Below are positions 3,528 through 50,377 of a stretch of 64,000 bases of DNA, one piece after another. Source of the DNA: Alistipes sp. (GTDB lineage Bacteria > Bacteroidota > Bacteroidia > Bacteroidales > Rikenellaceae); assembly GCA_031285345.1 (NCBI GenBank), contig JAITWI010000008.1:36111-100110 (forward strand). The letters are read 5' to 3'. Made by a program: the position numbers and the translations under genes. The stretch's first letter is position 1; every line of letters begins with the position of its first letter. The notes beneath the pieces are model-generated. The model did not search any database, was not told the DNA's origin, and saw nothing but the letters and a program-made list of their open reading frames with translations.

Positions 3528-4802
3528 ATGAGTAACGACGCGGCAAAAAGTTGGACCTGGCGCCCCGGTGGCGACCGTGCGTTGTGGGGAATAATCCTCA
3601 TATTGGCGGTGGTGTCGGTGGTGGTGGTCTACTCGTCGACGGGCGCGGCGGCTTTCAGCGGCGGCAGACTCGAAGGCAGCCACCTGAACGTGCTGATACG
3701 ACAGGCCGGCATAGTGGCGATGGGTCTGGTGGCGATCTACGCGATCCACAAGATCAACTATCAGGTCTACGGGCGCATGGTGTGGTTTCTGTATTCGCTG
3801 GCGCTCGTGTTCACCGTCATGGTCTATTTTATCGGCGAGGTCAACCCGGCGGCCCCCGACGCCCCGAGGTGGATCCGGATACCGATCATCAACTTCACAT
3901 TCCAGCCCTCCGACTTTCTGAAGGTGGCCACAGTGATGGTGGTGGCTCGCGAACTTGCCCGCCGCCAGAAGACCATAGCCGGGGAGGATGTGATCCCGCC
4001 GCTCACTTCGCGCGCGTGGCGCGAACGCAAGGGGGCGCGAACCCTGGTCGAAACCACCATGCCGATCGTGGCGCCGATCATACTTTCGTGCGGGGTTATA
4101 CTGCCGGCCAACCTTTCGACGGCGCTGATTCTGTTCGCCACCTGCTTCGTGGTGCTGTTCATCGGGCGGGTGCGTGTTCGCGAACTTGTGCGGATGGTGA
4201 TGGTTTTGGCGTTGTTGGCGGCTTTGGCTGTCGGATTTTTGTACGCCATCGGTCGGCCGCCCAAGCGAATGGAGACCTGGGTGGGTCGCTTCGAAAGGTT
4301 CGCGGCGGCCGACGGCACGGTCGACACCTATCAGGTCGACCAGGCGGCCATAGCCATAGCGGCCGGCAAACTTGCGGGTCGCGGAGCCGGAGGCAGCATC
4401 CAGAGGGGTCTTCTTCCCGACGCCGAGAGTGACTACGCCTATGCGTTCATAATCGAGGAGTACGGTTCGATCTTCGGCGGATTGATAGTGTTGATGTACG
4501 TCTGGATATTTTTCCGGGGCATAGCCATTTTCCGAAAGTGCGGCACCGCGTTCCCGAGCCTGTTGGTGCTGGGGCTTGCGCTGCTCATCACGCTTCAGGC
4601 GCTGGTCAACATGATGGTCTCGACCGACATGATCCCCTCAACGGGGGTGGCGCTGCCGCTCATATCCAAGGGCGGCTCTTCGGAGTTGTTCCTGTCGTGC
4701 GCTCTGGGAATGATGCTGGGTGTGAGCCGCCAGACGGGCGAAAAAACGTTGGATAAACCGCGGGCGGAGTCGCTGCTCGAAATAAATCGTACCGAAAAAT
4801 GA
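3528..4802 (+). CDS. ftsW: FtsW/RodA/SpoVE-family peptidoglycan glycosyltransferase (cell division FtsW)
   Basis: 424-aa multi-pass membrane protein with the SEDS motifs ESDYAYAFIIEEYG and PSTGVALPLISKGGSS. It sits in the dcw position between murD and murG. Confidence 0.92.
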   Translation: MSNDAAKSWTWRPGGDRALWGIILILAVVSVVVVYSSTGAAAFSGGRLEGSHLNVLIRQAGIVAMGLVAIYAIHKINYQVYGRMVWFLYSLALVFTVMVYFIGEVNPAAPDAPRWIRIPIINFTFQPSDFLKVATVMVVARELARRQKTIAGEDVIPPLTSRAWRERKGARTLVETTMPIVAPIILSCGVILPANLSTALILFATCFVVLFIGRVRVRELVRMVMVLALLAALAVGFLYAIGRPPKRMETWVGRFERFAAADGTVDTYQVDQAAIAIAAGKLAGRGAGGSIQRGLLPDAESDYAYAFIIEEYGSIFGGLIVLMYVWIFFRGIAIFRKCGTAFPSLLVLGLALLITLQALVNMMVSTDMIPSTGVALPLISKGGSSELFLSCALGMMLGVSRQTGEKTLDKPRAESLLEINRTEK

Positions 4803-6013
4803 GAATAATTTTAAGCGGCGGCGGCACGGGCGGCCACATATATCCGGCGGTGGCGGTGGCCGAGGCGCTCAAACGCAGACTCGGCGACGATGTCGAGTTG
4901 CTGTTCGTGGGCGCCGCGGGCAAGATGGAGATGGAGAAGATCCCCGCTTTGGGTTACCGGATCGAGGGTCTGCCGACGGCGGGTCTGCACCGTAAGTTGG
5001 ACGCGCGCAACCTGCTGCTGCCGCTGAAGATAGCGCGCAGCCTGCGTATGGCCCGAAAGGTTATAAGAGATTTCGGTGCCGACGCGGTGGTGGGTTTCGG
5101 CGGCTACGCGTCGGGCCCGGTGCTCAGGGTGGCTCAGCGGATGGGCATCCCCACGGTGATTCAGGAGCAGAACTCCTACGCCGGCTTAACCAACAAACTG
5201 TTGGGCAAGCGGGCGCAAAAAATTTGCGTCGCCTACGAAGGCATGGAGCGGTTTTTCCCGCCCGAACGGCGCTCTTCCGCCGGCAGTTCCTCGTCCGCCC
5301 GGCCTTACCGCGTCGCCAACTCCTCGTCCGACCTGCCTTCTGCCTCCGACCGACTTTCCACTGCCGGCCGTATAGAGTTGACGGGCAATCCATTGCGTGG
5401 CGACTTTTCGGTGCAACCCTCGCGCGAGGAGGCGTTGGCGTACTTCGGCTTCACGCCCGACAAACCGGTACTGTTGGTGGTGGGCGGGAGCTTGGGCAGC
5501 CGCACCCTCAACGACATGATGAAGCGCCATGTGGAACGGCTCGCTTCCGACGCCGAAATTCAGGTGATTTGGCAGACGGGCAAGTTCTACGAGACTGAGA
5601 TCGACGGGTTTATGGCCGAAAAGTTCGGCGATGGCAAGCCCGTGCAAAACATCTGGCGCAACAAATTCATCGACCGGATGGACTACGCCTACGCGGCGGC
5701 TGATTTGGTAATTTCGCGCAGCGGCGCCACCACGGTGTCGGAGCTCAGCCTGCTGGGCAAAGCTACGCTGTTCGTGCCCTCGCCCAACGTGTCGGAGGAT
5801 CATCAGACCAAAAACGCTATGGCGCTTGTGGAGCGCGGCGCGGCGGAGATATGTCCCGACTCGATGGCCGTCGAGCGGGCAATTCCGCTGGCGTTGAGGC
5901 TTTTGGGCGATCGCGCGCGCCTCGACGAACTGTCGGCGGGTATTCGCCGTTTGGCCATCGCCGACTCCGCCGACCGGGTGGCCGAAATCGTCACCCGATT
6001 GATAACCGGCTAA
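4799..6013 (+). CDS. murG: undecaprenyldiphospho-muramoylpentapeptide beta-N-acetylglucosaminyltransferase
   Basis: 404 aa with GGGTGGHIYPA, TGNPLR, SRSGATTVSEL and HQTKNA motifs. It carries an extra Ser-rich block of about 33 aa at 5270-5368. Confidence 0.95.
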   Translation: MRIILSGGGTGGHIYPAVAVAEALKRRLGDDVELLFVGAAGKMEMEKIPALGYRIEGLPTAGLHRKLDARNLLLPLKIARSLRMARKVIRDFGADAVVGFGGYASGPVLRVAQRMGIPTVIQEQNSYAGLTNKLLGKRAQKICVAYEGMERFFPPERRSSAGSSSSARPYRVANSSSDLPSASDRLSTAGRIELTGNPLRGDFSVQPSREEALAYFGFTPDKPVLLVVGGSLGSRTLNDMMKRHVERLASDAEIQVIWQTGKFYETEIDGFMAEKFGDGKPVQNIWRNKFIDRMDYAYAAADLVISRSGATTVSELSLLGKATLFVPSPNVSEDHQTKNAMALVERGAAEICPDSMAVERAIPLALRLLGDRARLDELSAGIRRLAIADSADRVAEIVTRLITG

Positions 6014-6041: not shown

Positions 6042-7667
6042 ATGATAAAAAACATATATTTCATCGGCATCGGCGGCATCGGCATGAGCGCGCTGGCTCG
6101 CTATTTCCTCCACAAAGGGGCGCATGTGGCGGGTTACGACCTGACGGAAACCCCTCTTACCAAGGCGCTTGCCAAAGAGGGCGCGGCGATTCACTACGCC
6201 GACGATCCGGCGCTTATTCCGCCCGGGTTTCGCGATCCGGCCACCACCACGGTAGTCTACACCCCAGCCGTGCCGTCCGACCACCGGGAGCTGACGTGGT
6301 TTCGCGAGGGTGGTTTCATGATAGCCAAGCGCGCTGAAATACTGGGAATTATCTCGCGCGACCACTTCACCATGGCCGTCGCCGGCACCCATGGCAAAAC
6401 CACCGTCACCACCCTCACCGCATGGCTAAACCGGGTGCTTTACGACGGCGAAAGCGGGAGCGGCGGCAATGGTAGCTGCAAAGACAGAGGCAATGGCGGC
6501 GGCAGCGCGTTTTTGGGCGGCATTTCCAAAAATTTCGACAGCAACCTTGTCCTCGGAAAGGATGACCGTTTGGTTGTCGAGGCCGACGAGTTATCTCCTT
6601 CACAAGATGCCTCCACCGCCTGCGGCGACGGTCGGCGTTCGGTCGATGAGCTTGCTTGGCAAGGTCGGCCCCGCCTTGTTGTCGAGGCCGACGAGTACGA
6701 CAGATCGTTTTTAAGACTTTCGCCCGACGTGGCGGTCATCACGAGCGCCGATGCCGACCATTTGGACATCTACGGCACCCACGAGGCGGTCAAAGAGGCG
6801 TTCTCGCAGTTCGTGGGTCGCATTTCGCCGACCGGGGCGGTTATTGTCAACAAAAAAGCCGACGTCGCGATCCCCGGCGGGACGCTCGCCAAATACTCCT
6901 ATTCGCTCGACGATCCGGAGACGGACTTCTACGCGGCGAACATCCACGTCCTGCCGAGCGGCCACTATACATTCGACATAGCCACCCCCGATGGCCTCAT
7001 CGAGAAATGCACACTCGGCATCACGGGCAAGATCAACGTCGAGAACAGCGTCGCCGCGGTCGCCCTGATGTGGGCCGCCGCAAAACTCCGCGAAGAACCT
7101 CTCGACGAGGCGAAACTTCGCTCCGGGCTTGCAGACTTCAGCGGGGTCAAAAGGCGCTTCGACATCCACGTCAACACCCCCCCGGCGGTCTACATGGACG
7201 ACTACGCCCACCATCCGGACGAACTTCGCGCCGCGCTCACCTCGCTGCGCGCGATGTTTCCGGGGCGCAGGATCACCGCCGTTTTTCAGCCCCACCTCTA
7301 CTCGCGGACGAGGGATTTCGCCGCCGGGTTCGCGGAGGCGCTATCCAACGCGGACGAGCTCATACTCACCCCCATATACCCGGCGCGCGAAGAGCCGATC
7401 CCCGGCGTCGACTCCGGGACGATCGGCGCACTCGTCAAAAACATCCCCTGGTGTGTGGTGGCTAAAGAGGGGCTCGCCGACGCCATCGCCGCCCGCGACA
7501 CCGATGTGGTGGTGACCTTCGGGGCGGGCAACATCGACAATCATGTCGCCGAGATAGCCCGGGTCGTGAGCCGAAAAGCCGCGACTGTCGGGGAAGAGGC
7601 GGCAGGTAAAGAAACGGTCGAAAAACTCGGAAAATTCGAAAGTCAGAGTAGTGGGCAGAGCGATTAA
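6042..7667 (+). CDS. murC: UDP-N-acetylmuramate--L-alanine ligase carrying an in-frame repeat-element insertion
   Basis: 541 aa with GIGGIGMSALA, GTHGKTT, EADEYDRSF, DADHLDIYG and DYAHHPDE motifs. The frame is intact despite the 105-nt insertion at 6591-6695 and a Gly/Ser-rich block near 6445-6500. Confidence 0.93.
   Translation: MIKNIYFIGIGGIGMSALARYFLHKGAHVAGYDLTETPLTKALAKEGAAIHYADDPALIPPGFRDPATTTVVYTPAVPSDHRELTWFREGGFMIAKRAEILGIISRDHFTMAVAGTHGKTTVTTLTAWLNRVLYDGESGSGGNGSCKDRGNGGGSAFLGGISKNFDSNLVLGKDDRLVVEADELSPSQDASTACGDGRRSVDELAWQGRPRLVVEADEYDRSFLRLSPDVAVITSADADHLDIYGTHEAVKEAFSQFVGRISPTGAVIVNKKADVAIPGGTLAKYSYSLDDPETDFYAANIHVLPSGHYTFDIATPDGLIEKCTLGITGKINVENSVAAVALMWAAAKLREEPLDEAKLRSGLADFSGVKRRFDIHVNTPPAVYMDDYAHHPDELRAALTSLRAMFPGRRITAVFQPHLYSRTRDFAAGFAEALSNADELILTPIYPAREEPIPGVDSGTIGALVKNIPWCVVAKEGLADAIAARDTDVVVTFGAGNIDNHVAEIARVVSRKAATVGEEAAGKETVEKLGKFESQSSGQSD
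6571..6695 (+). mobile_element. Short repeat element copy A (85-nt insert at 6591-6675) flanked by a 20-bp direct duplication of murC sequence (6571-6590 and 6676-6695)
   Basis: The flanking repeats are tggttgtcgaggccgacgag and ttgttgtcgaggccgacgag. The insert core gatgcctccaccgcctgcggcgacggtcggcgttcggtcgatgagc matches the reverse complement of 49298-49397 with a few mismatches. Confidence 0.75.
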
Positions 7668-21014: not shown

Positions 21015-22625
21015 TCAACTTTCAATCTCGTCGAGACATCCGACTATAATTTGGCAGCACTCGCGAATCTCGGCCTCGGTGATTGTGAGCGGCGGCGAGA
21101 TGCGAAATGCCGTGTCGCAAAACAGAAACCAGTCGCTCACCACGCCGCGGGCGACGAAAAGCTCCATCAGACGATACATTTTCGCGCTGTTGCCCAACTC
21201 GACCGCTATCAGCAGACCTGCTCTGCGTATTTCGACCACCGCCGGATGCACACCTATAACCTCCTCGAACATAGCGCCTTTCGACTCCACCTTCGACAGC
21301 ACGCTGCCACCCAGCCCCGTCCCTTTAGCCTCGACCTCCGACAGCACGCTGCCGTTCGCTCCGATGGCCCGAGAACCGTCCCGCACCAAAAACTCCAACG
21401 CCGCCAACCCCGCCGCGCAGCACACCGGATGGCCGCCGAAAGTGGTGATGTGCCCCAACGCCGGGTCGTGCGACAGCAGCGACATCAATTCGTTAGAAGC
21501 GATGAACGCCCCCAGAGGCATCCCGCCCCCGAACGCCTTCGCAAGACACAAAATATCGGGCACAACCGTTCCGCCACCGTCGGCCGCACCGGCCTCAGAA
21601 CTTTCTCCGTCGACCTTTGAGTCGCCGGTCGCACCGGCCCCCGAACAGCCCGAACCGGCCCCCGAACCGCCAGAATAGCTCGCACCCGGAAGCCCCAAAC
21701 GCCCCGCCTGCTCGAAAGCGAACAGCGTTCCGGTGCGCCCCATTCCGGTTTGAATCTCGTCGAAAATCAGCAGCGCGCCCGTCTCGTCGCACCGGCGGCG
21801 CAGAGCGGCCAAAAATCCGGGCGCAGGAAGACGCACCCCCGCCTCGCCCTGCACCGGTTCGACGACAACGCACGCCGTGGCCTCGGTGATGCGCGACAGC
21901 GACGAGAAGTCGTTGAATGTCAGCCAATCCACATCTGATAATAGCGGCTCGAACGGCGTCCTCCACTCATCGCCCTCGGGCGACGACATGAGCGACAGCG
22001 CGCCGTGGGTCGAGCCGTGGTATGCCCGCCGAAACGCCAAAATCTCGCGCCTCGCGGTCGAGTCCATGCCTTTCGAAACCCGTTCCCGCGCCGCCCGTTT
22101 GGCAAGTTTGAGCGCCCCCTCAATGGCTTCGGCGCCGGAATTCACAAAGTAAACCGACTGCAACGATGCACCCCTCGAACCGGCCGCCGCCGAGCTCACT
22201 GCTGCGCCCGAACATTCAGCCGCCGCCCCCTCGCAAGAAGCCCGCAAAACCTCGGCCAACCGCGCGGCGTAACGCACCTGCGGCGCCAATACCATCTCGC
22301 CGTAAACCATTGTGTGCATGAAGCTTGCGGCTTGCGCCCGCACTGCTTCAACTACCTCCGGATTGCCATGCCCGACGTTGGACACCGACACCCCGGACAC
22401 CAAATCGAAATATCTTCTGCCGCCCCCCGGCACATCCCCGGTCGATGCGTCTTCACTCGGCGTACACCCACTCGGCGCGCCACCTCCCGGCATGTCCTCC
22501 CTCGATGCGTCGGAACCCTCCGGAGCGTAAAAAAACACCCCCTCGGCTCGTTCGATCTCGATGGCCAGGGGCGAGGGCGACGTCTGCGCCACATGCTCCA
22601 AAAACTGTTGCCTCAATATTTTCAT
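21015..22625 (-). CDS. class-III (acetylornithine/ornithine-type) pyridoxal-phosphate aminotransferase with four low-complexity insertions
   Basis: Motifs SGVSVSNVGHGNPEV, NSGAEAIEGALKLA, LIFDEIQTGMGRTG and DILCLAKAFGGGMPLGAF (PLP lysine) are present. The ATG at 22625 was chosen over the upstream start. Confidence 0.88.
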   Translation of the reverse strand: MKILRQQFLEHVAQTSPSPLAIEIERAEGVFFYAPEGSDASREDMPGGGAPSGCTPSEDASTGDVPGGGRRYFDLVSGVSVSNVGHGNPEVVEAVRAQAASFMHTMVYGEMVLAPQVRYAARLAEVLRASCEGAAAECSGAAVSSAAAGSRGASLQSVYFVNSGAEAIEGALKLAKRAARERVSKGMDSTARREILAFRRAYHGSTHGALSLMSSPEGDEWRTPFEPLLSDVDWLTFNDFSSLSRITEATACVVVEPVQGEAGVRLPAPGFLAALRRRCDETGALLIFDEIQTGMGRTGTLFAFEQAGRLGLPGASYSGGSGAGSGCSGAGATGDSKVDGESSEAGAADGGGTVVPDILCLAKAFGGGMPLGAFIASNELMSLLSHDPALGHITTFGGHPVCCAAGLAALEFLVRDGSRAIGANGSVLSEVEAKGTGLGGSVLSKVESKGAMFEEVIGVHPAVVEIRRAGLLIAVELGNSAKMYRLMELFVARGVVSDWFLFCDTAFRISPPLTITEAEIRECCQIIVGCLDEIES

Positions 22626-22718
22626 AGAATATTCCTCAGAAATAGCCTGAAAAACAGACCAAAAACTTTTACAACAAAATTCCGGCAATTTCTTAATTAA
22701 GTTGCCGGAAATGTCCAA

Positions 22719-23813
22719 CTATTTCCTGTATTTACCGTCCTCTTCGAGCATTTTCAGGTAGCTCATGTAGCGTTCGTCGGCTATGGCACCCTCTTCGACG
22801 GCTCGCACCACGGCGCATCCGGGCTCGTGTGTGTGTGTGCAGTTATAGTATTGGCAGTCAGATGAAAATCGCATCAGATCGGGGAAATATCGACACAATT
22901 CGTCGGCTGAAATGTCGATTAGCCCAAACCCCTTGATGCCCGGCGTGTCGATAATGTAGCCTCCGCCTCCGGAACTCGTCGACCCACTGCCCGAATCGGA
23001 ACCCGCGCCGTCCGAGGCGATATCGGTATTAGGAAGGCCGTCCAACAGATACATCTGCGAAAATGTGGTGGTGTGCATCCCCTTTCCGTGGGAGCGTGAC
23101 ACCTCGCCGACGCGGATTTCGAGCCCGGGCGACACCGCACCCACGAGGGTCGATTTGCCGACGCCCGAATTGCCCGAGACCAGCGTCGTGCGCCCCCGCA
23201 AAAACTCGCGAACCTCCTCCACGCCGAGACCCGTGCGAGCCGACGCGAAAATCACCCGATAGCCCGCCCCGCGATATATCGCCGCGAATCGTTCCATCGC
23301 CTCCTCGCCGCCATCCGTCGCGAGCACCAAATCTACTTTATTGAGCAAAATCGTAGCCGGAACGCCATATGCCTCGCACGTCACCAGAAATCGGTCGATG
23401 AATTCGGTCGGTGTCGCGGGCGACGCCAGCGTGGCCACCACCAGCGCCTGATCGACGTTGGCGGCAATGATGTGACTCTCGCGCGACAGGTTCGACGCCC
23501 GTCGGATTATGTAGTTGCGCCGCGGCCCTATCGCCTCGATCCACACCTCTTTCGCGCTCTGATCCGAGCTCGCGCCCGAACCTGCGCCCGAACCTGCGCC
23601 GCCGCCCGCGCCCGCGCCCGAACTGCCGCCAATGGCCTCGATCGAGCACTCCACCGCGTCGCCCACCACCACGGGATTGGTTGCCCTCGACCCGGCGAGC
23701 CGCAACCGTCCCCTGAGCCGCGCGCTGAAAATCTCTCCCTCCGCCGTTCGCACCTCATACCAACTCCCGGTCGAACGCGTCACTACCGCCGTAAATCGTC
23801 CCTCGACAACCAT
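22719..23813 (-). CDS. rsgA: ribosome small-subunit-dependent GTPase A
   Basis: Motifs LLNKVDL, P-loop GNSGVGKSTL, and the C-terminal zinc knuckle CQYYNCTHTHEPGCAV are present. There are two Gly/Ser/Ala insertions. Confidence 0.92.
   Translation of the reverse strand: MVVEGRFTAVVTRSTGSWYEVRTAEGEIFSARLRGRLRLAGSRATNPVVVGDAVECSIEAIGGSSGAGAGGGAGSGAGSGASSDQSAKEVWIEAIGPRRNYIIRRASNLSRESHIIAANVDQALVVATLASPATPTEFIDRFLVTCEAYGVPATILLNKVDLVLATDGGEEAMERFAAIYRGAGYRVIFASARTGLGVEEVREFLRGRTTLVSGNSGVGKSTLVGAVSPGLEIRVGEVSRSHGKGMHTTTFSQMYLLDGLPNTDIASDGAGSDSGSGSTSSGGGGYIIDTPGIKGFGLIDISADELCRYFPDLMRFSSDCQYYNCTHTHEPGCAVVRAVEEGAIADERYMSYLKMLEEDGKYRK
23572..23630. repeat. 12-bp in-frame tandem repeat array inside rsgA (gcgcccgaacct x2, then degenerate units)
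   Basis: Read directly from the sequence. It encodes the GAGSGAGSGA-type insertion. Confidence 0.75.
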
Positions 23814-37000: not shown

Positions 37001-38050
37001 CGTCTGGTCGGAGGGTAGGCCGTCGGGCGAAAAGGCGAACCACGAGGCCGACAGCGGCAGATCCATCCCGTCGTCGGTGCGCACCGACGCGTTGATTATC
37101 AGGCGGCACGAACGCGAATTATGAACCACCGAGCCCCCCTCCGACGAGACGAAATATTTGCGCCCGACGGTCTGTTCGATCGTGGCCGTGCCGGTGAGGA
37201 TGTCGGGCGACGAGAGGAAAGCCGCGCTGTAAGCCTTCACGCGGCGCCTTGCGTCGGCACGATCGAACGCGATTTCTGCGGCGGTGAAGGGGACCTCGTA
37301 GTGGTTCTCGACCGGGGCGGGCGACCAGTCGGGGGCCGAGTCCTCCCTTGCGGCGTTCACGCGGTCGGCGGCACGGGCGTTTTCCAACGAGGCCACCGAG
37401 CGGCGATAGTCGCGCTCCACCTCGCGCCAAATCGTCTGACGGACGGCGGCGTGAGGGTCGGATGCTTCGGCGGCGTGAGGGTCGGGTGCCTGTGGGTCGA
37501 TGGTTTTTTTGTCGAGGTCGGATGCTTCGGCGTTCGGGTCGTGGTGGGCGGTCGGGTTTTCGATACGATCTCCGTAGTCCAACGGCAGCAGAATCTTGGA
37601 GCCGCGGTAGTCGTCCTGAGCCGTTCCGTTGTGAAAATTATCGAACGCCGGAGTGCCCACGCGGATGTGCGGTTCGAAAATTCGCTCGCGGGAATCGGTG
37701 TCGGCAAACAGAACGCCGAGCGAGGCACCGATTTTGCATTGGCGGGTGTCGGTCACACGAAAGTCGATGTAGTAGGGGGCGACGGGCGCCGCCGAGAGCC
37801 GGCTGAAAGTGTAGTCGAGTTCGTCGCGCAAAACCTCCGGCAGCGGATCGGACAGGAATCGCGCTTCGCTATGTTGGGTTTCACTATCCGGAGTTTCGCT
37901 ATGCGCCGCCGCCGGGGAGCTTGGCGGCACGCTTGCCGAGGCGTTCGCTTGGACTCTTATCGAGCCGTTCGCCGTAACGTTCGCCGCGACGCAGACGAAA
38001 AACAGGGCGAAAAAGGCGGGCAAAAGTTGAACAAAAATAGATTTTCGCAT
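34034..38050 (-). CDS. secreted single-chain TldD-like plus PmbA-like metallopeptidase fusion (1338 aa)
   Basis: It has a signal peptide. The first module carries the TldD zinc motif FHEIFGHRVEG and ends GVCGAESGAVAVTAVSPALLVGEVEVQ. The second PmbA/TldD-like module has no HExxxGH and ends SMIHPSGVLMEDVEI. Confidence 0.78.
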   Translation of the reverse strand: MRKSIFVQLLPAFFALFFVCVAANVTANGSIRVQANASASVPPSSPAAAHSETPDSETQHSEARFLSDPLPEVLRDELDYTFSRLSAAPVAPYYIDFRVTDTRQCKIGASLGVLFADTDSRERIFEPHIRVGTPAFDNFHNGTAQDDYRGSKILLPLDYGDRIENPTAHHDPNAEASDLDKKTIDPQAPDPHAAEASDPHAAVRQTIWREVERDYRRSVASLENARAADRVNAAREDSAPDWSPAPVENHYEVPFTAAEIAFDRADARRRVKAYSAAFLSSPDILTGTATIEQTVGRKYFVSSEGGSVVHNSRSCRLIINASVRTDDGMDLPLSASWFAFSPDGLPSDQTVLTEVRRMVETLTAMASAPVVDPYTGPAILSGEAAGVFFHEIFGHRVEGQRMKSDADGQTFKKMVGQQVLPRGFGVYDDPTLRSYGAEDLHGHYLYDDQGVRARRVDIVEDGVLKEFLMTRTPIDAFASSNGHARAAADRTPVSRQSNLVVESSRPLSDEQLRKALVREAKARGKEFGLFFKKVTGGFTQTGRYTAGSFNVTPLEVYKIYVDGRPDELVRGVDLIGTPLSMFAGIIAAGGDGDEDRRGDGDKFDRATFGGIGIFTGVCGAESGAVAVTAVSPALLVGEVEVQRKAKTAETPPLLPRPDVAPDTDEASGLGEPETTIAQRGLGDHQSLDGLEVADARSCTDDREADDDATIFAAMRSELARNMVRLRPSRHDAVETDGNEVPVVAARAIAESSPFHISLLYSDLRAISVRATLGKVTYSRLEPTRTIGTRVLLGDGRVTSDMSYGGAYNLRPAAIETDRDQIRREVWLSVDHAYKRAAADLARKLAIRRQTVRTPEEETLPDLTPMPIIPPASDRATEHATEQDREQEREEERLEEVARHLSAILTDFPSLYGSQVGVTVYDRTDRTLSAERTGMADTMGSGGAEAGFETTAMKQSAGFETTAVAPASFEETATEQSMRFVAISVSASVRTPEGGEFSDGREFFIPCDPSTPAPNQSSNPQEPPCVITDSVEKELEAWVGDFARELEAWAAAPAIDDFYIGPVLFVDRGAFELFDGNLLAGDGSALLAKRRPETQTSPPSPRRLEVRLGKRVLDRRLSIVNHSSMRRWCDPDSATNSTSTRNFPDAAGIPLMGYYRIDADGVMPPDSTMLVEDGMLRLLLGGRIPTPGHSASTGSNRFSVDMQPYIAPGTLEIRTKGGTTMEGLRADLLRLASEDGLDHAYVVERAAGMVDRVWRIEVSTGEQTLVRGARVVIPTLGALRRVAGVSSERTARNYLAGRVPASMIHPSGVLMEDVEIGVGESVGEKPLPTVNPLMREWAR

Positions 38051-41552: not shown

Positions 41553-42908
41553 TCAGTGCCGCGAAGGGGTGGTCAGCAGCGCGAGGGCTTCGCCGACTAC
41601 GTAGTTGCTGCCGCCGATGTAGATCATGTCTTGAGATCCGGCCGATTCGCGGGCGAGGGCGATGGCCGCGGCGACACATTCGGCCGCCTCTTTGGATGGG
41701 AAAGCGGCGAAACGCGACATCAGTTTTTCGACGGGCATCGAGCGGCTGTTGTCGGCGCGGGTGAGGATATAACGGGCGTCGGCGGGCAGCAGCGGCAGGA
41801 TGGAATCGAGATCCTTGTCGCCCGCGAATCCCAACACCATGTGGAGTTCGCCGCCGGGCCGCGACTCCATGCGGTTGGCGATCTGCCTAACTATCTCGCT
41901 AAGGCCGTGTGCGTTGTGCGCGGTGTCGAGCACTACTAACGGTTCGTTGCCGACGACCTGCCAGCGACCTTTTAAGCCGGTCAGGGCGGCGGCGTTTTCG
42001 AGCCCGGCGCGCAGTGCCGTTCCCGAAATAACAAACCCTGTCGAACGCAAAACATCGACCGCCACGAGCACCGTGCGCACATTTTTTTGCTGGTAATCAC
42101 CGCCCAAATCCAATTGAAAACTATCGGCAGGGATATTTCTATCGGCGGGGGCATTTTTGTCGGCGAAAACGATCGGCGAGTCGACGGCGGCGGCGCTGGC
42201 GCGGAAAACAGGCGCGCTTTCGGGGTCGGTTTCGCCGATGACTACCGGCACTCCCGGCTTTATTATGCCCGCCTTTTCGGCGGCGATCTTGGTTCTCGTA
42301 TCGCCCAGGTACTGAGTGTGTTCGAGGCCTATATTGGTGATTATGGATAGCGCCGGCACTATGATGTTGGTCGAGTCCAACCGTCCGCCCAAACCCGCCT
42401 CGATTATCGCCACGTCGCAACCTCGACCCGAATCCGAATCCGAATCCGAATCCGAATCGAAACCGCATACGCCACCCGAATCCGAATCCTCGCCAAAACC
42501 TTCGCCCCCCGCGAACCACCAGAGCGCCATGGCGGTGGCCATCTCGAAGAAAGTCAGCCCAAGAACCACCATCTCGTCGTGCCATCGGGCGGCGAACCAC
42601 ACCACCGCCGACTCGGGTATCATGTCACCGTCCACGCGGATGCGCTCGCGAAAATCGACCAGGTGCGGCGAGGTGAACAGCCCCACGCGATAGCCCGCCG
42701 ACTGAAGCACCGCCGCAAGCATGTGCGAGGTCGAGCCCTTGCCGTTGGTGCCGGCCACGTGTATGGTCGTGAGGCGGTTATGCGGATTACCGATCGCGTC
42801 GAGGAACGCCTCTATGCGCTCCAGACCGGGCTTATATGCCGCCGCCCCCTTCTGCTCCCACACGGGCAGCGAGGCGAACATAAATTCGAGAGTCTCGGGG
42901 TAGGTCAC
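41553..42908 (-). CDS. folC: bifunctional folylpolyglutamate synthase / dihydrofolate synthase
   Basis: The P-loop HVAGTNGKGST and the motif IIEAGLGGRLDSTN are present in a Mur-ligase fold. The start is GTG. A (DS)n insertion is present. Confidence 0.9.
   Translation of the reverse strand: MTYPETLEFMFASLPVWEQKGAAAYKPGLERIEAFLDAIGNPHNRLTTIHVAGTNGKGSTSHMLAAVLQSAGYRVGLFTSPHLVDFRERIRVDGDMIPESAVVWFAARWHDEMVVLGLTFFEMATAMALWWFAGGEGFGEDSDSGGVCGFDSDSDSDSDSGRGCDVAIIEAGLGGRLDSTNIIVPALSIITNIGLEHTQYLGDTRTKIAAEKAGIIKPGVPVVIGETDPESAPVFRASAAAVDSPIVFADKNAPADRNIPADSFQLDLGGDYQQKNVRTVLVAVDVLRSTGFVISGTALRAGLENAAALTGLKGRWQVVGNEPLVVLDTAHNAHGLSEIVRQIANRMESRPGGELHMVLGFAGDKDLDSILPLLPADARYILTRADNSRSMPVEKLMSRFAAFPSKEAAECVAAAIALARESAGSQDMIYIGGSNYVVGEALALLTTPSRH
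42428..42489. repeat. hexanucleotide microsatellite (ccgaat)x5 plus a second short block, in frame inside folC (encodes DSDSDSDSDS)
   Basis: Read directly: ccgaatccgaatccgaatccgaatccgaat at 42428-42457 and ccgaatccgaatcc at 42476-42489. Confidence 0.85.
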
Positions 42909-46888: not shown

Positions 46889-47986
46889 ATGCGGGTCGAG
46901 ATAGACAGCCAATCGGGATTCTGTTTCGGGGTGGTGGGCGCCATCTCGAAGGCCGAGGCGCGTATAGCGGCGAACGGGGCGCGGGACGAACGGGCCGTGG
47001 CGGATGACGATGGTGTCGGGGTGCCGGGTGAAATGTCCGGGGCGACCGAAGAAGTTGCCGGAGTGCCAGACAGGGCTGAAAGATTGGTGTCGCTGGGAGA
47101 TATCGTGCACAATGGAGCCGAGGTGGCGCGGCTGGAGGCATTGGGGCTCGAAACCGTGCCCGAGCAGACCGACCTTGCGACGCTTGCCGGGCGGACGGTG
47201 CTGATACGTGCCCATGGAGAACCGCCGGCCACGTACGCGATGGCGGCGCGGCATGGGATAACGCTTGTGGACGCGACCTGCCCCGTGGTGGCGCGGCTGC
47301 AACGGACGGCGCGGGAGGCGGGTGCGGATATGAAGAGGGTCGGCGGGCAGGTGGCGATATTCGGCCGCAGGGGTCACGCCGAGGTGCGCGGACTCGCAGG
47401 GCAGGTGGAGGCCGGAATGAATAGTGTAGACGGCGGCGCGGGCGCCGGAAGGGCGGCGGTCGCAGGCTTCGGATCGAAAGCAGGAGGGGCGATCGTGGTG
47501 GAGGGCGAGGCCGATCTGGATGAGATTGATTTCTCAAGGCCGATATATTTCATGGCGCAGACCACCGGCAGCCTCGCCGAATTTCGCAGGTTGAGCGAGG
47601 CGATACAGGGCAGAGCGACGAATCCGGCCGCGGTGACGGTGCGCGACACGGTGTGCCGTCAGGTGGCGGGGCGCGAGGAGCACCTGGTGGAGTTCGCAAA
47701 GCGGCACGACGCGGTGGTGTTCGTCGCCGGCGGCAAAAGTTCCAACGGGCGGGTGCTGTTCGAGGCGGTGGGGGCGGCCAATCCCCGCAGCCACAAGATA
47801 GAGAGCGCCTCCGAACTTCGACCGGAGTGGTTCGAGGGGTGCGGATCGGTGGGGGTGTGCGGCGCCACTTCGACCCCTAAATGGCTTATGGAGGAGGTTG
47901 CCCGAAAGATAATGAAAGCCGAGAGTAATCGAAAATTTATTTTCAGATTGCCGAGGCGCATCCTATCTTGGATGAGCGAAGCGTAG
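46889..47986 (+). CDS. ispH: 4-hydroxy-3-methylbut-2-enyl diphosphate reductase
   Basis: Motifs GFCFGV, GDIVHN, DATCPVV, GHAEV and TVCRQV are present. Two lineage-specific insertions lie at about 46967-47086 and 47414-47490. Confidence 0.92.
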   Translation: MRVEIDSQSGFCFGVVGAISKAEARIAANGARDERAVADDDGVGVPGEMSGATEEVAGVPDRAERLVSLGDIVHNGAEVARLEALGLETVPEQTDLATLAGRTVLIRAHGEPPATYAMAARHGITLVDATCPVVARLQRTAREAGADMKRVGGQVAIFGRRGHAEVRGLAGQVEAGMNSVDGGAGAGRAAVAGFGSKAGGAIVVEGEADLDEIDFSRPIYFMAQTTGSLAEFRRLSEAIQGRATNPAAVTVRDTVCRQVAGREEHLVEFAKRHDAVVFVAGGKSSNGRVLFEAVGAANPRSHKIESASELRPEWFEGCGSVGVCGATSTPKWLMEEVARKIMKAESNRKFIFRLPRRILSWMSEA

Positions 47987-49151: not shown

Positions 49152-49177
49152 GTAAGGGTTTTGAATAATGGAATGCA

Positions 49178-49215
49178 AACGGGCGACCCTTTCAAGGGCC
49201 GCCCGTTGTTTTGCG
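49178..49215 (+). terminator. Rho-independent terminator of pepT
   Basis: The stem pairs aacgggcgaccctt with aagggccgcccgtt with one mismatch, and is followed by gttttg. Confidence 0.6.
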
Positions 49216-49259
49216 GTATGCTTTGCTTAGCTACGAATCGCCGCGGCAGTCGGAGGTCA

Positions 49260-49434
49260 AATCCCCCACTTGTAGTACATAGCGCCCCAGGTGAACCGAG
49301 CGTCGCAGATGCGAGCTCATCGACCGAGCGCCGAGCGTCGCCGCAGGCGGTGGAGGCATCGTGTGAGGGAGTAACTAACACATAGATGAGGGTCTATAAT
49401 CCCCACTTGTAGTACATAGCGCCCCAGGTGAACC
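49260..49434 (-). mobile_element. Short repeat element copy B (100-nt insert at 49298-49397) flanked by a 37-38-bp direct duplication of the fabH 3' end (49260-49297 and 49398-49434)
   Basis: aatccccc(c)acttgtagtacatagcgccccaggtgaacc occurs twice with a single C indel. The insert is the reverse complement of the murC insert plus an extra 24 nt. Confidence 0.75.
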
Positions 49435-50377
49435 CCGCGCCGAACGCCGATATTATGAGGTTGTCGCCGCGCTTGAAACGGTCGCGGAACTCCCACAAAA
49501 CCAACGGAATGGAGGTGCCGGCCGTGTTGCCAAGGTGCTCTATGTTGACAAGTATTTTGTCGTCCGACAGACCCATCCGGTGGCCGGTGGCCGACAGAAT
49601 GCGCAGGTTGGCCTGGTGGGGGATCAGATAGGCGATGTCGTCGGGCTTTAGGCCGTGCCTTGCCATCATCGCCACCGACACGTCGGCCATGTTGCTGACC
49701 GCGTATTTGAACACCGTTTTGCCGTCCTGAATGATGTAGTGCTCGCGGCGGGCCACCGTCTCGGCCGAGGCGGGGTACATGCTGCCGCCAGCCTTCTGGT
49801 ATAGATAGTGGCGACCGATGCCGTCCACGTGGTTTTCGTAGTCCACAAGGCCCTCGTCCGGAGAGTCTGTCGGCTCGATGAGCATAGCCACCGCCGCGTC
49901 GCCGAACAGCGGACAGGTGTTGCGGTCGGTGTAGTCGGTGATGCCGCTCATCCTCTCGCCGCACACCAACACCACCTTTTTAGCCCGGCCGGCGCGAACC
50001 AAGGCGTCGACGGTGGAGAATGAGTAGATGAAGCCGCAGCAGCCGGCGTTGACGTCGAATCCCCAGGCGTTTTTGATGCCCACCTTGTCGGAGATTATGT
50101 TGGCCGTGGCGGGGAACTGCATGTCGGGCGTGACGGTGGCGCACACCAACATGTCCACCTCCTCGGGTTTGGTGCCCGTGGCGGCCAAGAGTTTACGAAC
50201 CGCGTCGGCTCCCATTTCGGAGGTGCCCAAACCGTCCTGCTTGAGGATGCGGCGCTCGACTATGCCGGTGCGCTCGCGGATCCACTCGTCCGACGTGTCG
50301 ACCAACTTTTCTATCTCGGCGTTGGTGAGGATGTACTCCGGAAGCGACGCCTCTATACCTTTTATTACTGCTCTCAT
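49394..50377 (-). CDS. fabH: 3-oxoacyl-ACP synthase III
   Basis: The active-site Cys context is NAGCCGFIYS. Motifs HQANLRI and GNTAGTSIP are present. The last codon and the stop codon are contributed by the repeat-element junction. Confidence 0.94.
   Translation of the reverse strand: MRAVIKGIEASLPEYILTNAEIEKLVDTSDEWIRERTGIVERRILKQDGLGTSEMGADAVRKLLAATGTKPEEVDMLVCATVTPDMQFPATANIISDKVGIKNAWGFDVNAGCCGFIYSFSTVDALVRAGRAKKVVLVCGERMSGITDYTDRNTCPLFGDAAVAMLIEPTDSPDEGLVDYENHVDGIGRHYLYQKAGGSMYPASAETVARREHYIIQDGKTVFKYAVSNMADVSVAMMARHGLKPDDIAYLIPHQANLRILSATGHRMGLSDDKILVNIEHLGNTAGTSIPLVLWEFRDRFKRGDNLIISAFGAGFTWGAMYYKWGL

What the first reader, a model, noticed from the sequence alone, without database searches (positions are those of the whole stretch)
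49260..49434. A second copy of the same element sits at the fabH stop codon, with a 37-38-bp target duplication that regenerates the C-terminus and stop
The sequence aatcccc(c)acttgtagtacatagcgccccaggtgaacc occurs at 49260-49297 and again at 49398-49434, bracketing a 100-nt insert. Several features are read on the fabH strand.

- **C-terminus.** The proximal copy ends the gene as ...FTWGAMYYKWGL-TAG, with the last base of the Leu codon and the stop supplied by the insert. The distal copy still encodes the presumed ancestral end ...YYKWGI-TGA.
- **Homology.** The insert aligns with the murC insert over about 76 nt, with a few mismatches.
- **Orientation.** Both copies lie in the same orientation relative to the host gene's coding strand.
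- **Ends.** Both begin with ttat immediately after the duplicated target.
- **Extra segment.** The fabH copy carries an extra 24 nt (agaccctcatctatgtgttagtta). That is exactly 8 codons, includes an in-frame TAG in the murC-equivalent frame, and is absent from the copy inside essential murC.

Long target duplications of variable length (20 versus 37-38 bp), no terminal inverted repeats, and orientation bias do not fit classical MITE, IS or REP behaviour. They suggest an unusual insertion mechanism. No transposase, integrase or reverse transcriptase is encoded in this window.
Basis: seen in the sequence. Interest (0 to 1): 0.72.

Follow-up and report, generated by a model that had tools for sequence, protein, structure and literature searches.

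The report
Small mobile insert duplicating fabH's end
A roughly 60-100-base mobile DNA insert sits exactly on the stop codon of the fatty-acid gene fabH, flanked by a 37-base copy of the gene's own end. It belongs to an apparently undescribed family in termite-gut Alistipes-like bacteria that lands inside essential genes and makes unusually long, variable target duplications.

Summary
A 37/38-nt direct repeat (49260-49297 and 49398-49434) brackets a 100-nt insert at the fabH stop. The proximal copy ends the gene as ...YYKWGL-TAG. The distal copy keeps ...YYKWGI-TGA, which is how the closest FabH homologues end. Relatives' DNA carries one copy of the repeat and no insert.

**It is a family.** The insert shares a 57-58-nt core (91% identical) with the in-frame insert in murC. 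I found eight further copies (ten in all, seven distinct sites) in other metagenome contigs. At least three of these come from termite-gut metagenomes. The sites are:
- murC, at two different positions
- ispG
- the murC stop
- the 3' end of rsmH
- one intergenic site at the end of a transglycosylase gene

Each site is flanked by an 11-37-nt duplication that is single in the empty sites available (murC, fabH). Every copy has a sharp junction ...TARTT|ACCTCC on one side and a ragged opposite end.

- Orientation relative to genes is not biased: five sites are reversed.
- The shared "ttat" is coincidental.
- The "extra 24 nt" lies outside the conserved core.

**What was not found.** There are no convincing terminal inverted repeats, no Rfam match, and no transposase or reverse transcriptase among 40 window ORFs.

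**Mechanism.** The best reading is a non-autonomous element copied in from a primed target end. This is inferred, not shown.

The parts
49398..49434 (-). Proximal copy of the target duplication. It forms the present 3' end of fabH (...FTWGAMYYKWG + TT of the Leu codon).
   Evidence: The sequence is single-copy in relatives L050 and L051.
49394..49397 (-). Insert-derived last base of the Leu codon (49397) plus the new TAG stop (49394-49396).
49373..49397 (-). 25-nt segment ATAGACCCTCATCTATGTGTTAGTT between the duplication and the conserved terminus. It ends in the family junction motif GTTAGTT. Its origin is unresolved: it may be a longer element tail or a carried-over flank.
   Evidence: Alignment of copies. 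L044 and L056 have comparable 8-11-nt and 7-nt extras ending in TAAATT and TTAATT.
49316..49372 (-). Conserved 57-nt core, ACTCCCTCACACGATGCCTCCACCGCCTGCGGCGACGCTCGGCGCTCGGTCGATGAG.
   Evidence: Covariance-model hit of 77 bits, E = 1.7e-18. It is 91-93% identical to the murC and L043 cores.
49298..49315 (-). 3' extension CTCGCATCTGCGACGCTC(GG). L044 shares it at 17 of 19 nt, and the murC copies resemble it loosely.
49260..49297 (-). Distal copy of the target duplication. It still encodes ...FTWGAMYYKWGI.
49257..49259 (-). Ancestral fabH stop codon (TGA), now 137 nt downstream of the working stop.
   Evidence: L051 ends aagtggggaatttga.
49394..50377 (-). fabH (ketoacyl-ACP synthase III), the host gene.
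   Evidence: Pfam ACP_syn_III and ACP_syn_III_C. Homologues.
6593..6668 (+). Sister copy inside murC: core 6593-6650 plus an 18-nt extension. It is translated in frame as (L)SPSQDASTACGDGRRSVDELAWQG.
   Evidence: Covariance-model hit of 96 bits.
6565..6592 (+). murC target duplication, upstream copy (encodes DRLVVEADE).
   Evidence: Empty sites in P0004, P0005, P0007, P0086, L048, L056 and L057.
6669..6696 (+). murC target duplication, downstream copy (encodes PRLVVEADE, continuing into YDRSF).

Best explanation
**What it is (shown).** The fabH insert is a recent copy of a small non-autonomous mobile element. The element has a 57-58-nt core and sometimes 6-25 extra nt at either end. It is scattered through the genomes of Alistipes-like Rikenellaceae; at least three of the carrier contigs come from termite-gut metagenomes. 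Insertion duplicates 11-37 nt of target. Copies that persist sit where the host tolerates them: on stop codons, where the duplication rebuilds the gene end, or in frame in protein loops.

**How it inserts (inferred).** I think the element is copied in rather than cut and pasted.
1. A free target 3' end finishing in ...TARTT pairs with the complementary tail of a separate template, either an RNA or a single-stranded DNA copy of the element. That end may be a nick or a nascent strand.
2. It is extended through ACCTCC... towards the other end of the template.
3. Synthesis stops or switches back at variable points, which gives the ragged far end.
4. It rejoins the chromosome 11-37 nt upstream of the priming site. 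Repair then leaves a long duplication of variable length.

The enzyme acts in trans and is not in this window.
For: **Mobility and target duplication**
- Ten copies at seven distinct sites were found.
- Each site is flanked by a repeat of local sequence.
- Relatives have single-copy, insert-free sites for fabH, for murC site 1 and for murC site 2.
- The ispG copy occurs in two independent assemblies, and the murC copy in three.

**Asymmetry of the ends**
- Every copy has TT|ACCTCC at one junction. The preceding bases are CGAGTT, CGTAGTT, CGTAATT, CTTAATT, GTTAGTT or GTTAAATT.
- The other end falls at GATGAG, at +6 (ATATTC), or at +18-20 nt.
- Three copies carry 7-25 extra nt at the sharp junction, and these extras themselves end in the same TARTT motif. 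This is what priming further out on a template tail would give.

**Other points**
- There are no convincing terminal inverted repeats, and single copies do not fold better than shuffled sequence.
- Both orientations relative to genes occur.
- No transposase was found among 40 scanned ORFs of the window.
Against: - Only seven sites were available, so the junction motif and the raggedness rest on small numbers.
- No reverse transcriptase, source gene or discrete transcript was seen.
- No known bacterial system makes such insertions.
- Subfamily variation could mimic ragged ends in a cut-and-paste element.
- A weak conserved hairpin has some covariation support: 8 pairs with double changes, 0 of 500 shuffles reaching the observed value. 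If real, it could be a transposase recognition structure instead.
- Older duplications have diverged, so their lengths are uncertain.
Confidence: 0.4

Rival explanations
1. It is an ordinary miniature transposon (MITE) moved by a DDE transposase encoded elsewhere. That transposase cuts the two target strands far apart and at variable distance, as reported for IS1549 and IS1634.
For: - IS1549 and IS1634 make variable direct repeats of 8-514 bp, with no mechanistic model proposed (PMC2266710).
- The element is short and non-coding, and its copies have target duplications.
- There is weak end complementarity, TTACC...GGTGA, and an alifold hairpin with compensatory changes.
Against: - There are no real terminal inverted repeats. 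Five complementary bases include the target-derived TT.
- One end is ragged, with three classes, and three copies have extra bases at the other end.
- Single-copy folds are not significant.
- No transposase was seen in the window's 40 scanned ORFs or among the genes called in the fetched relatives' loci.
Confidence: 0.25
2. No dedicated enzyme is involved. During replication or break repair, a nascent strand occasionally switches by microhomology to an existing copy, copies it, and returns upstream of where it left. This produces a templated insertion with a flanking duplication.
For: - It accounts for the same asymmetry, junction microhomology, ragged ends and variable duplications as the best explanation.
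- Any resident copy could act as donor. This fits two subfamilies, A and B, coexisting in one genome, as in L046.
Against: - Random template switching should not pick the same 58-nt donor at seven sites over long evolutionary time.
- Nothing obvious makes this sequence a preferred donor.
- Donor flanks should often be co-copied, but they are seen at most as short extras.
Confidence: 0.15
3. The same-site copies spread between related bacteria by homologous recombination of whole gene segments, not by fresh insertion. The element itself may now be immobile.
For: - Carriers of the murC site-1 and site-2 inserts are not monophyletic in an NJ tree, and their sister sequences lack the inserts.
- The 18 nt after the core are shared between the window and the L046/L047 murC copies, although their cores belong to different subfamilies.
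Against: - This does not explain seven different sites in unrelated genes.
- It does not explain the nearly perfect 37-nt duplication at fabH, which the two closest relatives whose DNA was examined (89% and 86% protein identity) lack.
- The tree has no support values.
Confidence: 0.1
4. It is an assembly artefact, or a functional recoding signal such as a translational bypass between the two repeat copies.
For: - GGA followed closely by a stop, with a matching codon 137 nt downstream, superficially recalls the phage T4 gene 60 bypass (own knowledge).
- The window comes from a metagenome contig.
Against: - The same inserts occur in independent assemblies from different samples.
- The fabH distal copy is out of frame with the element and adds nothing after landing except Ile-stop.
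- The murC copy is simply read through.
- There is no Rfam match.
Confidence: 0.03

Closest known systems
Rickettsia palindromic elements (RPEs)
   Same: Both are short non-coding repeats. Both are frequently inserted in frame into unrelated housekeeping genes, adding a conserved peptide that the protein tolerates (PMC10969869). Here the host genes are murC and ispG.
   Different: - RPEs are about 150 bp and clearly palindromic. This core is 58 nt and does not fold significantly.
- RPEs belong to a different phylum.
- I know of no long target duplications for RPEs (not checked in the primary papers).
Prokaryotic MITEs (including intragenic ERIC and RU elements)
   Same: They are small, non-autonomous, multi-copy and flanked by direct repeats of target, and they sometimes make in-frame fusions (PMC10969869; PMC2759123, listed, title and abstract only).
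   Different: MITEs are defined by terminal inverted repeats of 4-30 bp and usually by short duplications of fixed length. Here there are no real inverted repeats, the duplications are 11-37 nt and variable, and one end is ragged.
IS1549 / IS1634 (IS1634 family)
   Same: They are the only bacterial precedent found for long, variable-length target duplications (8-514 bp). The mechanism is unknown (PMC2266710).
   Different: They are 1.5-2-kb insertion sequences with a DDE transposase and inverted ends. No such gene or ends are seen here, and no MITE derivative of them is known to me.
Eukaryotic SINEs / LINE-type target-primed reverse transcription
   Same: Shared features are variable-length target duplications, one defined junction with short homology to the target, a variable opposite end, occasional extra flanking bases, no inverted repeats, and dependence on an enzyme in trans (own knowledge of LINE/SINE biology).
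   Different: There is no poly(A) or tRNA-like part and no reverse transcriptase in evidence, and no such retroposons are known in bacteria. This is a resemblance of pattern only.
REP / REPIN elements mobilised by RAYT (Y1 HUH) transposases, and IS200/IS605 derivatives
   Same: They are short, multi-copy and asymmetric, and they insert next to a short specific target motif (own knowledge).
   Different: Those elements depend on strong hairpins, are extragenic, and make no target duplication.

Membership tests
MITE | Terminal inverted repeats of about 4-30 bp | tested here: not met
   Only TTACC/GGTGA (5 nt) is complementary, and two of those bases are target-derived. The repeat finder reports no inverted repeat within the insert.
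MITE | Flanking direct repeats made from the target | tested here: met
   All seven sites have them. Empty sites were found in relatives for fabH and murC.
MITE | Short length (under 500 bp), no coding capacity, multiple copies | tested here: met
   Length is 58-101 nt. There are 2 copies in the window and 8 in other contigs.
Rickettsia palindromic element-like (intragenic palindromic repeat) | In-frame insertion in unrelated protein-coding genes | tested here: met
   In-frame copies occur in murC at two sites and in ispG. The called rsmH ORF in L056 also runs through a copy.
Rickettsia palindromic element-like (intragenic palindromic repeat) | Stable palindromic (hairpin) structure | tested here: inconclusive
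   The alifold hairpin has 88.9% of cells paired and 8 pairs with double changes, with 0 of 500 shuffles reaching that. However, the consensus energy is only -7.7 kcal/mol, single-copy z-scores run from -1.1 to +0.5, and alignment of the B-type copies is ambiguous.
IS1634/IS1549-type transposition | Long target duplications of variable length | tested here: met
   Lengths run from 11-13 up to 37 nt across sites.
IS1634/IS1549-type transposition | DDE transposase and matching inverted ends on an autonomous partner | tested here: not met
   None was found among 40 window ORFs or among the genes called in the fetched loci. Whole genomes were not available.
Target-primed retroposon (SINE-like) | Variable target duplications, one homology-defined junction, variable far end | tested here: met
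Target-primed retroposon (SINE-like) | RNA intermediate and a reverse transcriptase acting in trans | not testable with these tools
   No transcript data and no complete genome were available. There is no Rfam family for the element.
IS200/IS605-derived or REP/RAYT element | No target duplication, and a strong subterminal hairpin | tested here: not met
   Duplications are present at every site. No significant hairpin was found.
Diversity-generating retroelement repeat pair | Adenine-specific differences between two repeats at a gene's 3' end, with an adjacent reverse transcriptase | tested here: not met
   The fabH repeats differ by one C/G indel only. The murC repeat differences are not A-specific. 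The neighbours are pepT and DUF4493 genes.

The most novel reading that the evidence does not exclude
This is a bacterial counterpart of a SINE: a short RNA-derived element inserted by target-primed reverse transcription. Priming occurs from target ends finishing in TARTT, and the element has been active over long evolutionary time in termite-gut Rikenellaceae. A weaker variant of this case is that it is the product of an unknown polymerase-based copy-in pathway.
Probability: 0.2. Interest if true: 0.88.

Novelty: new variant of a known kind. Interest (0 to 1): 0.62.

Why it matters
**Mechanism.** Small repeats that live inside essential bacterial genes are rare outside Rickettsia. Long duplications of variable length have no accepted mechanism in bacteria. 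This family combines both features and adds a sharply asymmetric anatomy that points away from cut-and-paste transposition. If the copy-in reading holds, bacteria would have a SINE-like or template-switch insertion pathway that is currently unknown.

**Protein evolution.** The copies show how essential enzymes (MurC, IspG, FabH, RsmH) absorb 28-35 extra residues or a rebuilt C-terminus.

**Practical use.** The inserts are handy lineage markers for uncultured termite-gut Alistipes-like bacteria. They are also a warning for gene callers, because stop codons and C-termini here are supplied by mobile DNA.

Tried and rejected
**Searches for more copies**
- A scan of GTDB species representatives for the 20-mer core gave 42 hits, all chance matches in GC-rich genomes. 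None carried the 24-mer.
No census was therefore possible.
- Three IMG/VR scans gave nothing, or chance hits that the covariance model rejected.
- Plasmid and phage collections gave no match.

**Peptide census for proteins carrying the insert**
- A composite peptide query found nothing.
- The representative-library search with the 30-aa reverse-frame peptide returned only two unrelated repeat proteins.

**Structure and RNA family checks**
- Rfam at gathering and at permissive thresholds gave nothing credible.
- Single-strand folding of the inserts and of eight cores was no more stable than shuffles.
- The AlphaFold model of MurC had pLDDT below 50 across residues 135-224. It could not say which duplicated RLVVEADE strand is used.

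**Other attempts**
- Three contig look-ups were lost. Two used references that included the stop codon, and P0121 itself was not on record.
- GC skew is dominated by gene orientation, so orientation relative to replication could not be judged.

**Readings considered and dropped**
- Diversity-generating retroelement repeat pair
- Off-target CRISPR spacer integration
- Integron attC site
- T4-type translational bypass
- Assembly artefact

The reasons are in the membership tests and the rival explanations.

Full report
**1.

On the + strand, aatcccccacttgtagtacatagcgccccaggtgaacc lies at 49260-49297. The same sequence with one C fewer lies at 49398-49434, and 100 nt separate the two.

The fabH ORF (49394-50377, minus strand; Pfam ACP_syn_III and ACP_syn_III_C) ends ...F T W G A M Y Y K W G L, TAG. 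The TT of the Leu codon belongs to the repeat. The A and the TAG belong to the insert. The distal copy reads ...K W G I, TGA (stop at 49257-49259).

None is expected by chance.

**2. The duplication was made by the insertion**

- Most of the closest FabH homologues (about the top 20 listed) end ...KWGI or ...KWGM. More distant ones end differently or carry short extensions. Only the window's protein ends ...KWGL.
- The DNA of two close relatives has one copy of the repeated sequence, no insert, and the stop where the distal copy has it. These are L050 (89% protein identity, ending ...aagtggggtatgtag) and L051 (86%, ending ...ttcacctggggtgcaatgtactacaagtggggaatttga).
- The same test works for murC. 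Homologues without the insert read ...DRLAVEADEFDRSF once, whereas the window reads DRLVVEADE-[26 residues]-PRLVVEADEYDRSF.

**3. It is a family, not a pair**

The source is a 146-kb JGI contig. One source names its FabH 'MAG: Alistipes sp.'. The nearest MurC is only 68% identical. Further copies came from the metagenome scan, from DNA fetched for MurC homologues, and from nhmmer and covariance-model searches.

| Site | Where found | Orientation and frame |
|---|---|---|
| ispG | L043 and L045, two assemblies | Reversed, in frame: NYEVRSTE-YSSTERRTSPQAVEASCEGG-NYEVRGGS |
| Intergenic, on the stop codon of a transglycosylase gene | L044 | Reversed relative to the gene |
| murC site 1 (same site as the window) | L046 and L047 | Same as gene, in frame |
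| murC site 2, after AWLN | L048 and L057 | Reversed, in frame; duplicates NSQV, which is single in relatives |
| murC stop codon | L046 | Reversed |
| 3' end of rsmH | L056 | Reversed; the called ORF runs through the element |

- L046 and L048 come from termite-gut metagenome project PRJNA193472.
- L047, L056 and L057 come from JGI metagenomes. L043, L045 and L050 come from GenBank metagenome assemblies QMCE and QMCD. I could not establish the habitat of either group.
- In 64 kb, the window has only its two copies.
- There is nothing in Rfam, plasmids, phages or IMG/VR, and no true hit among 185,579 species representatives.

**4. Anatomy**

Aligning eight copies gives a 57-58-nt core: ACCTCCCTCGCAAGATGCCTCCACCGCCTGCGGCGACGnTCGGCGCTCGGTCGATGAG.

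*The sharp end.* In every copy the core is preceded by TT, and the downstream duplicate also ends in TT. The TT is therefore target sequence or junction homology. The bases before it are alike across sites: CGAGTT, CGTAGTT, CGTAATT, CTTAATT, GTTAGTT, GTTAAATT.

*The ragged end.* It falls at GATGAG (ispG). It falls at +6, ATATTC, in L046 (murC stop) and L056. It falls at +18-20 nt in fabH and L044, and more loosely in the murC copies.

*Extras at the sharp junction.* Three copies carry extra bases between the duplication and the sharp end: fabH 25 nt, L044 8-11 nt, L056 7 nt.

*Duplications.* They measure about 37 nt (fabH), 27 nt (murC site 1), 14-25 nt (ispG), 11-13 or possibly 27 nt (murC site 2), 12 nt (L046, L056) and about 15 nt (L044). 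Old ones have diverged, so some lengths are uncertain.

*Orientation.* The element runs with the gene at the two window sites and against it at the other five.

*Folding.*
- RNAalifold proposes an imperfect hairpin over the core, with compensatory changes. It has 88.9% of cells paired against 23-47% when slid, 8 pairs with double changes, and 0 of 500 shuffles reaching the observed values.
- The consensus energy is weak, however, and single copies fold no better than shuffles.
- The most informative rows are hard to align.
- I call the hairpin inconclusive.

**5. Age and subfamilies**

- The fabH copy is young. Its duplication is nearly perfect, and the relatives examined lack the insert.
- The murC site-1 copy is old. 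Between the window and L046, the core (72% identical) has diverged as much as the flanking gene (71-72%).
- There are at least two subfamilies:
  - A-type: window murC and fabH, L043, L044, L046 murC stop.
  - B-type: L046 and L047 murC site 1, L056 rsmH. These share many derived characters and are 88% identical.
- The same murC site thus holds A-type in the window and B-type in L046 and L047, although the 18 nt after the core are shared.
- Carriers are not monophyletic in an unsupported NJ tree, and their sister sequences have empty sites.
- Recurrent insertion, conversion of resident copies, or transfer of alleles by recombination could each explain this. I could not decide between them.

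**6. Mechanism**

*Shown.* It is a mobile, non-coding insert that creates long, variable duplications of its target. It has one sequence-defined junction and one ragged end. It lacks real inverted repeats and depends on something encoded elsewhere. No transposase, integrase or reverse-transcriptase domain turned up among 40 window ORFs.

*Inferred.*
- The asymmetry, the junction homology, the extras that again end in TARTT, and the variable far end fit copying from a template primed by a target 3' end. This is the pattern of target-primed reverse transcription or of polymerase template switching.
- They fit poorly with cut-and-paste by a DDE enzyme, which needs two defined inverted ends.
- They also fit poorly with HUH or site-specific recombinases, which make no duplication.
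- The one bacterial precedent for such duplications is IS1549/IS1634, at 8-514 bp with no model (PMC2266710). That keeps the transposase rival alive.

My estimates are 0.4 for copy-in from a dedicated template, 0.25 for a wide-stagger transposase, and 0.15 for enzyme-free template switching. The rest goes to minor rivals.

**7. Why copies sit where they do**

Four of the seven sites are at a gene's 3' end. At three of these (fabH, the murC stop in L046, the transglycosylase gene in L044) the insertion falls on or within a few bases of the stop codon. The fourth is the rsmH end in L056. The other three are in-frame additions of 28-35 residues.

- This is most simply survivorship. In a compact genome of about 60% GC, only such insertions are harmless.
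- The AT-containing target motif is also commoner at gene ends.
- At fabH the duplication rebuilds the whole C-terminus, at the cost of one conservative change (I to L).
- In MurC the downstream RLVVEADE copy joins the conserved YDRSF. In other lineages the upstream copy has decayed (P0009, P0020, P0025), which suggests the downstream copy is the working one.
- The structure model was too poor to confirm this.

**8. Comparison with known kinds**

- It behaves like Rickettsia palindromic elements in colonising essential genes in frame (PMC10969869).
- It resembles MITEs in size and copy number.
- It fails the defining MITE feature (inverted repeats) and the RPE feature (a clear palindrome).
- Its duplications are unlike either.
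- I found no description of it in the searchable literature.

I rate it a new variant of a known kind, namely small intragenic mobile repeats. There is a real chance that the mechanism is of a kind not yet known in bacteria.

Noticed in passing
L046 4226-4303 and L047 2965-3042, compared with window 6593-6668: The same murC site holds a B-type core in L046 and L047 and an A-type core in the window. Yet the 18 nt after the core are shared (TTTGCTTCGCAAAGTCGG versus CTTGCTTGGCAAGGTCGG). This points to conversion of resident copies, recurrent same-site insertion, or allele transfer.
   Followed up: partly
L049 10421-10594 (murC of GCA_031547885.1); also P0009, P0025, P0018, P0022, P0023, P0014, P0036: Other Rikenellaceae lineages carry different inserts of 13-46 residues at the same murC position, before RLAVEADE. 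Some include a decayed upstream duplicate (EDLASE...CEDL). The L049 insert has no second copy in the fetched DNA. The site looks like a hot spot, or these are very old decayed copies.
   Followed up: partly
window 6432-6503 (MurC residues ~131-154): A Gly/Ser-rich 24-residue stretch (RVLYDGESGSGGNGSCKDRGNGGG) sits at the second murC insertion site, where relatives have 6-7 residues. It contains a short internal repeat (GGCAATGG twice). The covariance model does not recognise it as a copy.
   Followed up: partly
window 4799-6013 (murG) and 46889-47986 (ispH/lytB): Both proteins carry long low-complexity stretches that looked to me like insertions, though I did not compare them with homologues. 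Examples are RRSSAGSSSSARPYRVANSSSDLPSASDRLSTAG in MurG, and ARDERAVADDDGVGVPGEMSGATEEVAGVP and a Gly/Ala-rich stretch in IspH. This genome may hold other families of intragenic inserts.
   Followed up: no
window 21015-22718(-), 23564-23630, 42415-42489, 37444-37532: There are several short tandem repeats inside coding regions. They include 45-nt and 21-nt units in a 567-residue class-III aminotransferase, CCGAAC/CTGCGC units, a CCGAAT hexamer run in a Mur-ligase-like gene, and 24-60-nt units in a 1350-residue PmbA/TldD-like protein.
   Followed up: no
L056 166-244: The called rsmH ORF reads straight through a reversed B-type copy (...MNISSTEARLSAEGWRGKAEGDN) and stops at a TAA just beyond it. 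The relative L058 ends ...AKLRAAAKWSE at about the point where the L056 sequence enters the element.
   Followed up: partly
window 49176-49213: A GC-rich hairpin (gggcgaccctttcaagggccgccc) lies between the convergent pepT and fabH genes. It looks like a shared terminator and sits downstream of the ancestral fabH stop.
   Followed up: no
L046 5221-5300 and L056 160-260: Two copies at unrelated gene ends share nearly the same flanks (AAYTCGTAATT before the core, ATATTCRYAACTCGTAATT after it). This suggests either strong target specificity or flanks that move together with the core.
   Followed up: partly
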